Shown here: positions 26,280-39,217 of the stretch, piece by piece | Numbering within the stretch: the stretch's first letter is position 1 | How the letters are laid out: each line of letters begins with the position of its first letter | Assembly: GCA_964016885.1 (NCBI GenBank) | Contig: OZ024745.1 | Coordinates: 116,188,001 to 116,252,000, forward strand | DNA length: 64,000 bases | Direction of reading: 5' to 3' | DNA from: Eledone cirrhosa | Taxonomy: Eukaryota | Position numbers and translations under genes: made by a program | Notes under the pieces: model-generated | Told to the model about the DNA's origin: nothing | Database searches by the model: none | The model's input: only the letters and a program-made list of their open reading frames with translations

Positions 26280-26500
26280 AGTTTTATTTAAAATTGTTGG
26301 GTTACAACAAGTAAATATTTTATAACTGATATAAAGCACTCAACAAGTTTTGGAGTAGATATACGATATTAAACAAATGGAAACTATATTTATAAAACCA
26401 TATTTATTTCATTATACATATTTCAGGGATACCATATTAAAAATATGGCATGCCTTCTTCAGATAAAATACAATATATAAGCAGTTTTATAAATAAATTT
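26280..26500 (-). mobile_element. HHR-bearing pLTR-like module (tattttat family)
   Basis: Same order of motifs as 31490-31740 and 38385-38595: ttgtattttatctga.ga ... gaaa ... atttcca.tt ... actcca ... gttgagtgct ... atcagttata. Confidence 0.8.
26405..26470 (-). ncRNA. Hammerhead ribozyme motif, core intact
   Basis: tattttat-CTGAAGA-aggcatgccatatt ttt aatatggtatccct-GAAA-tatgta-TA-atgaaata. Confidence 0.8.
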
Positions 26501-27054
26501 GACGTACCATGAATATTGATCAACTTCCATATATATACAGTGTGAGTAGTACGTTGAAATACTGGTGTTGGTACCAAATCACGCACTCTATGCACAGCAG
26601 AATATATATAACAGAAAAAACGAGGAATTTTCGTTTACATATGAAACATCTTTATTGCGTATCGACCTGTTAAGTGTGTTTCGCAGGGGATTGGCTCACG
26701 GTCGCCCACATAAGTTATGGACCGGACTCCAAAGCGGACCCTCCTGGCCACGACAACAAACAGGCCATGGTTCAACTAGCCACGGTGGACACTCTGGCAA
26801 CGGTTGCCCTCCTACGGACCATATACACGTTCGCACCGAGAACCACGCCGACAATGACGACCACAACTTTACTCCCGCAGCCCGTACCAACACCACAACC
26901 AGCCTTGATAACAACAACAATGCCCGCATTCAGACCGGAAGAACCAACAAAGCGTCAGGTTCCCACCTCCGATTACCTGTTTTGTCGCCTCACGGACACA
27001 GAAGGAACCTGGGGTATGAGTGCCAAACCCTTAGACCACATTCGACCCTGCAAT

Positions 27055-27790
27055 CAACATCCCGGGAATATTCTTCAGGGCCCTTGACCAGTATTTCGTC
27101 CCAACACATAGATACCATCAGATCTTCAACAGGCAGACGGGCAAGTTCCCTTCTCAATAACACCGAACGTTGAGAGCTTCATAATGGCCATAAACCTGAA
27201 AAAGATCGGGAAATTCACCACCCATGATAGCCCTGACACTGCACCTAACCAACAACTCCGGGTTGCAAGCGAATATGACAGTCCCAACCATCTGACGAGT
27301 AATGACCCACCAAACCACGCAGAGCCCTTCCTCAAACCCGCACCACTGAGCTGCCAGACACCAGCGACCCATGAATCGAAAGTGCAACTGCAGATCCGAT
27401 ACAGTGTGTCCGCTTCGAAACAACTGTTTGTCCTCCCGTATCGTATACAGATGCACCATGTAGAATACAGTAGAAAATATGTATACATAAGTGCAACCGA
27501 CAGATATTTTAAATCCCGTTTCTACCACCATGCATGCTCCTTCAGGCATCGGAATAAAAGATCGCAAACCAGTCTATCTGAGCAGATATGTCGGCTAAGG
27601 ACGCTAACATCACCTTTAGAACAGAATGGGACGTCATAAGAATGGTAACTTCGCTCCACCTAGAAGGATGACACTGCTGGTTATGCTTCGCGGAAGCAGA
27701 GCAAATAATAAAACTGAAAAAGAAAACACGGTATAAACGCGCGAGACCTGAAATCGTCAGGAAACTGTTTGCACCAGCGTGCCCACCAGT
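27055..27790 (+). mobile_element. Penelope-like element ORF remnant (linker plus GIY-YIG endonuclease)
   Basis: FFRALDQYFVPTHRYHQIFNRQT; CNCRSDTVCPLRNNCLSSRIVYRC; YVYISATDRYFKSRFYHHACSFRHRNKRSQTSLS. Confidence 0.85.
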
Positions 27791-27844
27791 TCAACAGGTA
27801 CGTGGACGAGCAGATCCTAAGGAATACCAAGTAATTTACAGCCA

Positions 27845-28115
27845 TAGAGTTCTTCAAGCGTCTGGAGCCATTCCTGGGAACGTCTCGCTCCTTAGTGTTA
27901 GCGGGGGACTGGAATGTCATCTTAGACCCACGTTGGGACTATGTAGGAGCTTGCGATAATAGAGGGGGCGTAATAGCCTCAAAAATCTCATCAGCCAATT
28001 CCAACTGACAGATAGATATCGACTAGACTTCCCAAGTGCACCACTGTGGACGTGGAGCAAACAACGCACTGGGTCTTCTAGATCGTATTTAGAGAGATTT
28101 CTAATTAGACAGAAT
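27845..28115 (+). mobile_element. Tx1-type APE endonuclease fragment, paralogous to 25430-25658
   Basis: FFKRLEPFLGTSRSLVLAGDWNVILDPRWDYVGA; DRYRLDFPSAPLWTWS; SSRSYL. Confidence 0.85.
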
Positions 28116-29426
28116 GCTAAGGAAACAGATGCAAACTAATTAACACTAATACATACGCACACACATACAGACATACAAACACCCACACGTATGCCCACTC
28201 ATGGACTCATACCCACACGCACAAGCATAAGTACACGAAAAAGGGGATCTCACATATAATACAGAAACACAGGCACATAAATCTACGCAAGCACAACAAC
28301 ACCTGTACAAATAACCACACACGTTTATCATCTGATACACACCCACGCATATTCTCTAAGTCACATGCTTCATTCCCTATGTTTTTTTTAACTATATATA
28401 TTATAGTTAAAACAGAAAACAAAAACAAAGCGAAGAGGCAGTACACAGTGTTAATATTAGGTTCACGCTTGAGAGTGATGGGTGGGGTGGGGGACGACGT
28501 TTCGGGCCTTTCATCGGGAGAAAAAAAAAGATAGATAGATAGATAGATAGAGAGACGAAGGGGTGGGGTGGGGTGATAAAGTGTGTGTGAGGGAGAGAAT
28601 GAAATAGATATGGTGAGTAGATAAAGGGCGACTGAAAAGAAAGATTTTAAGAATATATCAATAATTATTTATAAATATATCCTTTAAATCGTAAATAAAA
28701 AAAAATGTGTGTATATATATATATATATATATGCATATGTATAAATATATATGTGTAATGAAATATATATATATATATATTTCTTTATACATATATATGT
28801 ATATATGTGTGTATATATATATATATATATATATATATATATATATATATATATATATATATATATACATGTGTATGCATATCGATCCATACAAATATGC
28901 ATGCATGCCTATATACAAACATGTACGCACACATACATACATTAAGAGGTTAAAAAGCTCACGTAACTTTTTTTCCTTTGTTTGCCGGAAAGCTAAGTTA
29001 CTCGAACTCACATTCTTACACACACACTTACCAGCACAAACACTAACACACACATACACACACACAAACGCGCGCGCACATAGACACACACATGCACACA
29101 ATCACACACATCCACATATACACATACTGACATACAGACGAACGCAAACACACACGCACACACCCATTCTCTCTCTCTCTCTCTCTCTCTCTCTTTCAAA
29201 GCTTCATTCTCTCTTTTTTTATCATTCTCTCTTTCAGATACCCCATGCTCACGTGCTTATTTCCTCTCTCTTTATCTGTGTTTGTCTGTCTTCCTCTATC
29301 TGTTTCTCTGTTGTATCATCTCACATAAGCTCCCTAAAGCTGATTTTTTGTTAATTTACCTCACTATTTTTCTATACTTAGCTATCTACCTATTCAATGT
29401 TGCCAGTCTTTCGTTTTGTCTGTCTG

Positions 29427-29660
29427 CCTCTCTCTCTTTCTCTCTCTTTCTCTCTCTCTCTCTCTCTCTCTCTCTCTCTCTCTCTCTCTCTCTCTCTCTC
29501 TCTCTCTCTCTCTCTCTCTCTCTCTCTCTCTCTCTATCTATCTATCTCTCTCTCTATCTCTCTCTCTGTATCTCTCTCTCTGTCTCTCTCTCTCTCTCTA
29601 TATATATATATATATATCAGTCTATATATCCACATATCTATCTATCTATCTATCTATCTG
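29427..29660. repeat. (TC)n / (TCTA)n compound microsatellite
   Basis: Direct reading. Confidence 0.95.
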
Positions 29661-29866
29661 CCTGACACGTGGAACATCGCTGGTAAGCTTTTTTGTAAAT
29701 TTCTATACAAAAAGCTGAACTAATTGTTTGAAAAAACATATCATTATATAGATTAACCTCCAAGCTGAATTGTCAGCTGGGTGGTAATCCCATTATTCGC
29801 CCTCTAGCGGCGAAAATTTAATTTAAAAATTGTTTTTAAAAAATCAAATTTCGCCGACTATAAAAC

Positions 29867-37340: not shown

Positions 37341-38384
37341 ATATACATCTAAAGCAACAACAAATAAAATGTTATGTGTTAGTCGCGCCAAATTAAGCAT
37401 GTTTTCATAAATCCTCAATCGAAAATTAACTATGATAAAATCTATAGTGTGATAAATTCCCTCCTTATTACACATTCCATGTACGTTGACCATATTGTAC
37501 TAAAAGCCGTATAATTTCTTTTTTGCTCAGCAGCCACCAAAGATAAACTATATTCAATAAATCACCAGGTATCTTCTATTATACTAAACCATTACATCTA
37601 GAAAGCATTATGTGAAGTATAAAATGGAAATTCTCCACTCAGTGTTGAAAGCACCACATCCATAAATCAAATATGTTTAAGCATAGCATTACATCTCCTT
37701 TCTGCCTTTATAACGTAAGCTTTTTTGAATCACTACACAGATTATGATATCCTGCTATTTCACTCTCACTATAACTCTCTCCGTATAACTAATGGCTATA
37801 GTATATTATAGCATCCTATTTTTGCAGTAAATCTTACTCTCCTTATTTGTAAACCTTAAAACTTCAATTCATGTTAATATACCATACATTCTTCCCATCT
37901 ATTAGCCATATTTATTTATCTGTATTTTTAAACATATATGTCTCTCTCAATTATCTCTTACACTATCTATATATGCCACGCAAAACATTTCCTTTCAACT
38001 GCGATAGATTGACGATATTATCGCCCGAAGATATACCAATCGAGTAGGGACACAGCTTAATGAAAAAATAGAAGATTATTTGGAAGCAGTTTTATTGGCA
38101 GAGGGCGTTATCTCTTCCACTTGGCAGATTATTTATATTATCGTTATATTGAATATCGTATTAAATCAGAAAAGGTATTTAAACAATATACAGTATATGA
38201 AGAGAAGTGTATAAAAATACTTACAGCACCTCCGTTACTCTGCCATGTACCGTTAACTATGGTACTAAATAATATAATCACATACCCACACACACACACC
38301 ACACACACACACATATATATATATATACATATATAGTGTAAGCTGAAGATGAAGGCTTATGTTTCTTGGCTATGTCACTATCTT

Positions 38385-38595
38385 ATACATAAAACATTGT
38401 ATTTTATCTGATGAAAGCCTACTATAAATTGGTATCCTTGAAATTCGTATGATAAAATATATGATTCTATAGTGATATTTCCATTTATTACTTTATTACT
38501 ATTAATAATATTATAATACTCCAGAAAAAATTACTTGTAGAGTGCTTCATATCGGTTATGAACATAACTCTGTTGAATATTCATCAACAAAGCAT
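38385..38595 (+). mobile_element. HHR-bearing pLTR-like module; HHR at 38400-38459 has a non-cleavable AUG triplet
   Basis: tattttat-CTGATGA-aagcctacta taaat tggtatcctt-GAAA-ttcgta-TG-ataaaata, then family tail, ending at (TA)n. Confidence 0.75.
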
Positions 38596-38665
38596 ATATA
38601 TATATATATATATATATATATATATATAAAAGAAGAAATTAAAAGATGGTTAAAAAAGTACCATA

Positions 38666-38734
38666 TATTTTATTATGCGCATTTCGAAAACAACATCATC
38701 CTGGGACCGAAATTGTGTTCTCATCAGATAAAAT
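38666..38734 (-). ncRNA. Hammerhead ribozyme motif, core intact
   Basis: attttat-CTGATGA-gaacacaat...gttgttttc-GAAA-tgcgca-TA-ataaaat; G-C closes stem II; palindromic ATGCGCAT stem/loop III. Confidence 0.85.
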
Positions 38735-38810
38735 TAAGTAAAAACACTTGTCAACAGGAAAGTGGACTTTCCTGTTGACAAGTGTTTTTAGGCCTCATAT
38801 CATGTTACCT

Positions 38811-38877
38811 TATTTTATCTGATGAGAACACGATTTTTGTCCCAGGATGATGTTTTTGAAATGCGCATAATAAAATA
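38811..38877 (+). ncRNA. Hammerhead ribozyme motif
   Basis: tattttat-CTGATGA-gaacac...gttttt-GAAA-tgcgca-TA-ataaaata. Confidence 0.8.
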
Positions 38878-39217
38878 TATGGAACTTTTTAAACCCTCTT
38901 TAATTTCTTCTTTAATATATACTCCAGTTCTATCAACTGTTGACTGCTACTTATCTGATATATGCATAGTTTTATTGTTCTACAATATTACACACCTTCT
39001 ACACACACACATATATATATATATATATATATATATATATATATATATATATATATATATATATATATATATATATATATATATATATATATATATATAT
39101 ATATATATATTTATATATATATATATATATATATAAATATATATATATATATACAGGGTGCCGGCCTGTCAAAGATAGCCTTATTAGAGGAGAGGTTTGA
39201 GATTCTAGTACTCATAT

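What the first reader, a model, noticed from the sequence alone, without database searches (positions are those of the whole stretch)
26280..39000. Family of about 200-bp hammerhead-ribozyme modules with free stem II and fixed scaffold
Seen: five copies (26405 minus, 31537 plus, 38400 plus, 38666 minus, 38811 plus) share stem I tattttat/ataaaata, CTGAnGA, GAA(A) and a 2-4 bp stem III with a (near-)palindromic loop. Four continue into downstream boxes (actcca..gWgtgct..atcrgttat) and end at (TA)n or (CA)n. Stem II differs in sequence and length yet stays paired, as expected from selection on RNA structure. Established: PLE pLTRs and retrozymes carry minimal HHRs that can act as dimers. Inference: a diverse microsatellite-associated ribozyme retroelement family, mostly without an attached ORF. 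This is the best candidate for an undescribed system here.
Basis: partly seen in the sequence, partly recalled or inferred. Interest (0 to 1): 0.75.

Follow-up and report, generated by a model that had tools for sequence, protein, structure and literature searches.

The report
Hammerhead ends of Hydra-clade Penelope retrotransposons
The five ribozyme-like motifs are real and are the cut-short tail ends of a known kind of jumping gene (Hydra-clade Penelope-like retrotransposons) that has left about 72,000 such motifs in this genome, and a small hairpin found twice next to them likely tells the copying enzyme where to start.

Summary
The five hammerheads are real but are not an ORF-less system. 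They are the 3' pseudo-LTR ends of four 5'-truncated insertions from four families of Penelope-like elements (PLEs). Sister copies 85-97% identical lie beside an RT-GIY-YIG ORF or its remnants. The ORF carries the motifs that define the Hydra clade. A strict pattern finds 71,943 cores genome-wide, control 0. Stem II is not free: 3 bp, a pyrimidine-pyrimidine mismatch, then a covarying helix. Two window copies have damaged cores. Copies end at two fixed sites, and head-to-head pairs have one of each (14 of 15), as published for PLE 'tails'. Not found in my searches: each end lies just 5' of one copy of a duplicated hairpin box, the second in the 5' UTR, tied in by a covarying helix. This is a likely RT-positioning signal, untested. 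Cleavage and expression are untested. This scan found the same kind of element before on other DNA of this genome.

The parts
26275..26530 (-). Family B insertion: 5'-truncated 3' pseudo-LTR with long end, between TA runs
   Evidence: 97.4% to the L276 pLTR, which has ORF sequence 1.7 kb upstream on its strand; 91.0% to the pLTRs around the open 737-aa ORF of L061
26405..26470 (-). Type I hammerhead, intact core, 31-nt stem II, predicted cut after AUA at 26413
   Evidence: cleavage inferred
26335..26356 (-). Box 1 hairpin (RCTCC...GAGTGCT); the 5' strand of the long-range helix follows at 26320-26330
31482..31736 (+). Family A insertion: 5'-truncated 3' pseudo-LTR with long end and a 25-bp duplication at its 5' junction
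   Evidence: 95.9% to L033 and 94.6% to L031, both ORF-linked
31537..31601 (+). Hammerhead with A15.1 changed to G; predicted inactive
   Evidence: sister copies have A
31653..31690 (+). Box 1 hairpin (31653-31675) and 5' strand of the long-range helix (31680-31690)
38337..38593 (+). Family D insertion: older 5'-truncated pseudo-LTR with long end
   Evidence: 85-86% to modules downstream of ORF remnants in L125 and L147
38400..38459 (+). Hammerhead with G at position 17 and a damaged palindrome; predicted inactive
38518..38546 (+). Box 1 of the family D copy
38594..38628 (.). (TA)n shared by the long end of the D copy and the short end of the C insertion
38629..39002 (.). Family C insertion: head-to-head fold-back; minus arm has the short end (38629), plus arm the long end (39002); centre near 38764
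   Evidence: 94.5% to the L116 pLTR, which runs directly into an ORF start
38666..38735 (-). Hammerhead, intact core, G10.1-C11.1 pair, palindrome ATGCGCAT
38811..38877 (+). Hammerhead, intact core, G10.1-U11.1 wobble, palindrome ATGCGCAT
38921..38948 (+). Box 1 of the family C long arm (one substitution in GAGTGCT)

Best explanation
The five motifs are hammerhead-bearing 3' pseudo-LTR ends of 5'-truncated Penelope-like retrotransposons with Hydra-clade motifs, likely pasted into (TA)n by the elements' own RT-GIY-YIG protein starting at two fixed sites inside the RNA. Shown: a full element is [inverted truncated copy][pLTR with hammerhead][5' UTR][ORF of about 740-800 aa][0.9-1.7 kb AT-rich 3' UTR][pLTR](TA)n; copies stop at a short or a long end about 90 nt apart; head-to-head pairs carry one of each; each end lies within about 13 nt of one copy of a duplicated hairpin box. 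Inferred: the endonuclease nicks both strands of a TA run, and two RT subunits prime on the RNA, one at the AT tract before box 1 and one before box 2, giving two divergent cDNAs that are usually short and join as a fold-back. Because box 2 lies in the 5' UTR, long-end copies that include the ORF likely come from an RNA in which 3' UTR, pLTR and 5' UTR run on: a tandem transcript, or a circle. The hammerhead lies upstream of both ends and is copied intact. It is predicted to cut weakly, as a dimer through the 8-nt palindrome or with protein help, and likely serves to process multi-unit transcripts, not to insert.
For: ORF linkage for all four families. 25 of 150 scored N-terminal hits lie in open frames of 739-755 codons. 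Hydra motifs R-W-R/K, DKT, YRDD, CxCx5C, CxxC, CxH and no CCHH (against PMC8557442 section 11). AlphaFold model pLDDT 91.9; its five best PDB matches are telomerase RTs (best E 9e-10, TM about 0.3). Positional sample of 40 regions on contig C1: upstream homology to full elements runs continuously from about 35 to 3,461 nt (median about 280), and 11 of 54 have the ORF within 2 kb; 30 of 62 hammerheads are in 15 head-to-head pairs, 14 long+short, 1 short+short. Of 226 copies mapped to read-through templates, 86 end at hairpin 1, 103 at hairpin 2, 33 read through and 4 end elsewhere. Long-range helix and inner hairpin: 5 of 21 pairs change on both sides, 93.8% of cells pair against 87.8% shuffled, 13 junctions. 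One clean genomic tandem, ORF end-3'UTR-pLTR-box 2-ATG (L172). Frangieh 2024 (PMC11167929, main text) showed in vitro, for a Poseidon-clade PLE, both-strand nicking, two internal RT starts with the tail between them, a required RNA segment 3' of them, and a protein-assisted hammerhead not needed for insertion.
Against: No cleavage, RNA or protein data for these families. No tree with published Hydra proteins was built, so the clade call rests on motifs. Pfam finds nothing in the L062 ORF itself; only 4 and 5 of 82 relatives hit RVT_1 and GIY-YIG. For family D no open ORF was seen, only remnants beside 85-86% copies. Hairpin 2 shows no compensatory change, and box 1 and box 2 could pair with each other instead. 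Both ends also sit on AT tracts that can pair with the TA target, which could fix them without any box. Frangieh found priming without homology to the target, whereas here short AT homology is present. Representatives are related, so covariation counts are not independent events.
Confidence: 0.88

Rival explanations
1. An independent non-autonomous ribozyme retroelement (retrozyme or SINE-like) of about 200 bp that borrows a PLE enzyme; the first reader's view.
For: 43 of 54 sampled hammerheads have no ORF within 2 kb. Retrozymes are reported to derive from PLE pLTRs (bioRxiv 10.64898/2026.07.22.740005, first fifth of the text). Short copies could themselves be re-transcribed.
Against: No fixed 5' end: upstream homology is continuous from about 35 to 3,461 nt and follows the 3' UTR into the ORF. 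No same-family head-to-tail repeats: 1 same-strand neighbour under 1 kb among 62, with different stem II. Three window copies have 94-97% sisters attached to ORF sequence.
Confidence: 0.04
2. Rival for one step only: the template is a unit-length circular RNA made by hammerhead cleavage in both pLTRs and ligation, copied around more than once (model proposed by Cervera and de la Pena 2014).
For: Long-end copies with a full ORF are common (L061, L062, L064, L065, L069) although box 2 is never copied behind them. Same-strand ORF ends upstream of a 5' pLTR were seen in only 2 of 34. The core and the dimer palindrome are kept across families.
Against: Tandem DNA templates exist (L172). One search missed family B and most of its upstream windows were only 1.1-1.6 kb, so tandems are undercounted. 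In Anolis the hammerhead was dispensable and no RNA ends were seen at the cut site. Template jumping between the two pLTRs would give the same DNA.
Confidence: 0.3
3. Rival for one step only: the two ends are set by AT microhomology with the (TA)n target; the boxes are promoter or translation signals that happen to lie nearby.
For: Both ends fall in AT tracts, and 169 of 189 end-mapped copies continue into a microsatellite. The boxes are conserved as sequence, with little covariation.
Against: The pLTR and 3' UTR hold many other AT tracts, including ATATATAT inside the hammerhead, yet only 4 of 226 copies end elsewhere (that mapping required 35 aligned bases past the cut site, so ends at the hammerhead itself were not counted). 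The same box follows both ends at similar spacing in families whose proteins are only about 53% identical.
Confidence: 0.3

Closest known systems
Hydra clade of Penelope-like elements (Craig et al. 2021, PMC8557442; section 11, passages and supplement tables seen)
   Same: Single ORF with RT and C-terminal GIY-YIG; RWK-like, DKT, CxCx5C, CxxC and CxH motifs; no CCHH; hammerhead near the 3' end; (TA)n insertion; inverted 5'-truncated copies; a tail at one end.
   Different: pLTR-to-pLTR 3.4-4.2 kb against generally under 3 kb; tail about 90 nt against 30-40; stem II 20-36 nt with an internal mismatch, against mostly 4-7 bp; about 72,000 cores in one genome, where the paper lists few families outside cnidarians. 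The listed cephalopod family Hydra-1_Obim has a different hammerhead and N-terminus (by eye).
[quoted passage not shown]
   Same: Type I, palindromic stem III suited to dimers, larger-than-usual helix II, high family diversity with covariation, mostly solo or close opposite-strand pairs from truncated PLEs.
   Different: 8-bp stem I; no extra base between positions 9 and 10.1; pair 10.1-11.1 usually A-U or G-U; conserved Y-Y mismatch at stem II position 4.
Poseidon element of Anolis (Frangieh et al. 2024, PMC11167929; main text and start of methods read)
   Same: Two internal RT start sites with the tail between them, on RNA spanning the pLTR-ORF junction; AT-rich target; hammerhead upstream of the starts; AC-rich sequence at the long end.
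   Different: Other clade; its starts lie inside the ORF and lack target homology; no duplicated box is described in the text read (supplementary figures not seen).
Metazoan non-LTR retrozymes (Cervera and de la Pena 2020, PMC7229834, passages; Li et al. 2026 preprint, first fifth)
   Same: Type I hammerhead with weak palindromic stem III, AT-rich, very high copy number.
   Different: Retrozymes are head-to-tail repeats of 150-450 bp without an ORF; these are dispersed or head-to-head truncations of ORF-bearing elements.

Membership tests
EN+ Penelope-like element | Single ORF with telomerase-like RT and C-terminal GIY-YIG | tested here: met
   737-741 aa ORFs; top fold matches are TERTs; GIY-YIG-type strands, R and E-N residues; weak Pfam hits in relatives only
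EN+ Penelope-like element | Direct pseudo-LTRs flanking the ORF, with an inverted 5'-truncated copy upstream | tested here: met
   L062-L065, L069 and others (output partly cut)
EN+ Penelope-like element | Hammerhead in the pLTR; tail at one end only | tested here: met
Hydra clade | RWK motif; DKG changed to DKT | tested here: met
   RWR or RWI, and DKT; RWK/RWR in relatives
Hydra clade | CxCx5C linker; CxxC and CxH around the E and N; no CCHH | tested here: met
   CNCRDRSKC, CDLC and CKH in L062; absence of CCHH judged by eye
Hydra clade | Insertion into (TA)n | tested here: met
   169 of 189 end-mapped copies are followed by a dinucleotide run
Hydra clade | Groups with published Hydra RTs in a tree | not tested
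   The published proteins were seen only as cut supplement text
Type I hammerhead | Conserved core and three stems | tested here: met
   3 of 5 window copies intact; covariation in 19 representatives
Type I hammerhead | Self-cleavage | not testable with these tools
   needs an assay
Non-LTR retrozyme | Head-to-tail repeats of 150-450 bp, each with a hammerhead | tested here: not met
   No same-family tandem among 62 sampled or in the window
Non-LTR retrozyme | No coding partner in cis | tested here: not met
Non-LTR retrozyme | Abundant small circular RNA | not testable with these tools
   no usable RNA run

The most novel reading that the evidence does not exclude
The duplicated hairpin box and its covarying three-way junction are the cis signal that positions a PLE reverse transcriptase dimer at its two start sites: a template-defining RNA domain in the sister group of telomerase. 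Because the second box is never copied at the element's 3' end, the lineage renews itself through hammerhead-made circular RNA.
Probability: 0.25. Interest if true: 0.7.

Novelty: new member of a known kind. Interest (0 to 1): 0.38.

Why it matters
As a discovery of a new element class it falls: these are ends of a described clade. What remains is a useful test system. How PLEs choose their two internal start sites, and what their hammerheads do, are open questions. Here tens of thousands of copies from many families give a natural mutational series, naturally open ORFs exist, and one short motif predicts both ends.

Tried and rejected
Rfam scan: no hammerhead family among 50 matches. Pfam and PDB sequence searches with the ORF alone: nothing useful. 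First fold on 8 close sequences: pLDDT 38, discarded. ESM Atlas look-up gave no result. Expression: no RNA holder listed; contigs of two runs of unknown kind were laid, which says nothing on expression or copy number. A seeming compensatory change in hairpin 2 (L116) was one copy only and was dropped. A box 1/box 2 pseudoknot was considered but not separated from the two-hairpin fold. Dimer folding of the cores gave the hammerhead dimer for family C but other pairings for A, B and D among the four printed, so it is not used as support. The CA-rich DNA upstream of 31537 is not this element's body: it looks like a zinc-knuckle ORF1 remnant, and tblastn with the ORF finds nothing there. Five of 24 clusters were left out of the stem II count: three near-duplicates keep the mismatch, one has a deleted base, and one (2 copies, L060) pairs G-C at position 4. 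Literature searches showed no paper describing these families or a duplicated box; only the papers cited were opened, and Repbase, Dfam and most subscription journals were out of reach. The Octopus vulgaris repeat paper (PMC13282606, passages) counts Penelope-like families but has no word 'ribozyme' or 'Hydra' in its main text.
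Full report
Observation. All five motifs are present as described. Each reads stem I (8 nt), CTGAnGA, a 25-35 nt stem II, GAA, an 8-nt near-palindrome, the cleavage base and the 3' strand of stem I. Three are intact. 31537 has G for A15.1 and 38400 has G at position 17; both are predicted dead by the standard core rules (recalled). Rfam does not list them. The host is an animal with a 3.0-Gb, TA-rich genome; no call names it, and my impression of a cephalopod is from memory.

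What they belong to. Searches of the own genome gave 2,612, 2,424 and 2,802 first-look candidates for the modules at 31537, 38811 and 38400, of which 40 each were scored. Sister copies extend upstream by varying amounts into an AT-rich region and then into the end of a GIY-YIG frame. One locus showed the module followed by an ORF start. That N-terminus found 16,842 candidates; 25 of the 150 scored lie in open frames of 739-755 codons. Fetched loci show the full plan: inverted truncated copy, pLTR with hammerhead, 737-741 aa ORF, 3' UTR, second pLTR, (TA)n (the output was partly cut). Window copy 26470 is 97.4% identical to an ORF-linked pLTR (L276), 31537 is 95.9% to L033, and 38811 is 94.5% to L116, whose pLTR runs into the ORF start. 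38400 is 85-86% identical to modules downstream of ORF remnants. So the five motifs are four insertions from four families, called here B, A, D and C.

Clade. The ORF has R-W-R, DKT, YRDD, a CxCx5C linker, CxxC and CxH, and no CCHH, the features given for the Hydra clade by Craig et al. 2021 (PMC8557442, section 11). That paper also reports hammerheads and (TA)n targeting for the clade, and a tail at one end of PLE insertions. With 82 sequences the model reached pLDDT 91.9 and its five best PDB matches were telomerase RTs. No tree was built. The cephalopod family in the supplement, Hydra-1_Obim, differs in hammerhead and N-terminus by eye.

Scale and truncation. A strict core pattern matches 71,943 times (36,123 forward, 35,820 reverse; reversed-pattern control 0). 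It was written from these families and misses damaged copies. I fetched 40 regions around the first listed matches on contig C1 as a positional sample. Of 54 hammerheads (8 of 62 dropped as identical to another over the match and 40 nt each side), 11 have the ORF within 2 kb upstream on the same strand. Homology to full elements reaches from about 35 to 3,461 nt with no common 5' end; two copies of a family without a reference scored 0. No retrozyme-like array was seen. This is ordinary 5' truncation.

The hammerhead. In 19 family representatives (of 24 clusters; the five left out are listed under Tried and rejected) stem II pairs at positions 1-3, 5 and 6 in 19 of 19 and at 7 in 17, with A-U, G-C and G-U exchanged. 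Position 4 is C-C, C-U or U-C in all 19. In total 112 of 114 cells pair, against 94.6 +/- 2.3 when halves are shuffled among sequences. The representatives are related, and one small cluster left out pairs at position 4. The 8-mer before the cut site is ATATGTAT, ATATATAT, ATGCGCAT or ATACGTAT in 18 of 19, all self-complementary if G-U is allowed. The collecting pattern constrained this stretch to R/Y alternation, so only the A-T versus G-C exchange is informative. It fits the dimer model of Cervera and de la Pena 2014 (PMC4209133), who found low activity in vitro. The mismatch sits where loop II lies in canonical hammerheads and may dock on stem I; that is inference.

The two ends. In the positional sample 14 of 15 head-to-head pairs have one of each. 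In the similarity-selected loci, which favour long ends, 46 of 61 pairs were long+short, 6 short+read-through, 5 long+unclassified, and one each of four other kinds. With a short-end query, 5 of 5 pairs with both arms printed had a long partner. The window's 38629-39002 insertion follows the rule. I began this count after seeing notes of this scan that mention such a rule. It matches Frangieh et al. 2024 (PMC11167929): two internal RT starts with the tail between them.

The duplicated box. Where a 5' pLTR reads through to the ATG, a second copy of the box (GCTCC...GAGC[A/G]CT) follows the long end. Of 226 copies of families A-C aligned to nine read-through templates, 86 end within -12 to +2 nt of hairpin 1, 103 within -13 to 0 of hairpin 2, 33 read through and 4 end elsewhere (alignment ends include short AT homology, and copies under 88% identity or 35 aligned bases were not counted). 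In 13 junctions the consensus fold is hairpin 1, then a three-way junction closed by a 9-11 bp helix that holds an inner hairpin, an unpaired AC-rich stretch with the long end, and hairpin 2 (12 of 13 fold so on their own, z from -0.2 to -4.7). The closing helix and inner hairpin have 5 pairs changed on both sides, and no shuffle of 500 reached the observed pairing (the structure was drawn from these sequences). Hairpin 2 is invariant, so its pairing is not supported by covariation. My searches found no description of such a box.

Mechanism. Shown: structure of the elements, two ends, one of each per fold-back, boxes beside both ends, conserved hammerhead upstream of both. Inferred: both-strand nicking of (TA)n, priming before each box, joining of two divergent cDNAs. 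Long-end copies with a whole ORF need box 2 behind them on the template, if the box model holds. One genomic tandem provides that (L172); 2 of 34 read-through pLTRs had an ORF end upstream in a search that missed family B and had short windows. A hammerhead-made circle or a template jump would do the same, and DNA alone cannot separate them.

Verdict. Real, well conserved and very abundant, but a new set of families of a described clade, not a new system. Interest 0.38, resting on the copy number, the constrained long stem II and the testable box model.

Noticed in passing
window 14345 (-) and 58267 (+), first base of CTGAnGA: A second hammerhead family: short stem II, 4-bp stem III with an 8-nt loop, ending at (TA)n about 30 nt after the cut site; looks like another PLE end.
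   Followed up: no
window 49730 (+): Hammerhead-like motif with a GUC cleavage triplet and a different stem I.
   Followed up: no
window 17305 (+): Core with the same ATATGTAT-A palindrome but about 50 nt between the core boxes and a degenerate stem I; possibly a distant, stretched relative.
   Followed up: no
window 14640 (+): CTGAAGA with a short stem I and GAAT in place of GAAA; possible variant hammerhead.
   Followed up: no
window 27059-27780 (+) and 60542-60931 (-): Remnants of Hydra-type ORF ends (linker and GIY-YIG, about 30% identity to L062) from more GC-rich families, not joined to the five modules.
   Followed up: partly
window 23156-25775 (-), 27860-28120 (+), 29935-31245 (+): Broken non-LTR element with APE endonuclease and RT that looks Tx1/L1-like, a short endonuclease piece, and an ORF1-like remnant with a zinc knuckle; labels recalled from motifs.
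   Followed up: no
window 39150-41261 (+): Broken Ty3/gypsy-like pol (RT end, RNase H, integrase) directly after the (TA)n at the family C long end; label recalled from motifs.
   Followed up: no
window 32997-33085 and 10358-10522: Perfect or near-perfect fold-backs; the first is made of a SINE-like piece joined head to head, resembling the PLE fold-back pattern.
   Followed up: no
L121-L123 (G000:C10:51.30-51.33 Mb): Family D modules repeat on one strand at about 6.1, 6.1, 3.7 and 8.5 kb with no ORF match between; likely a segmental tandem array.
   Followed up: partly
loci L009, L080, L118, L135, L140, L159, L215-L239: Further families with the same scaffold; family E copies are up to 99% alike over the core, so likely young; one has ORF sequence 1.6 kb upstream (L266).
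   Followed up: partly
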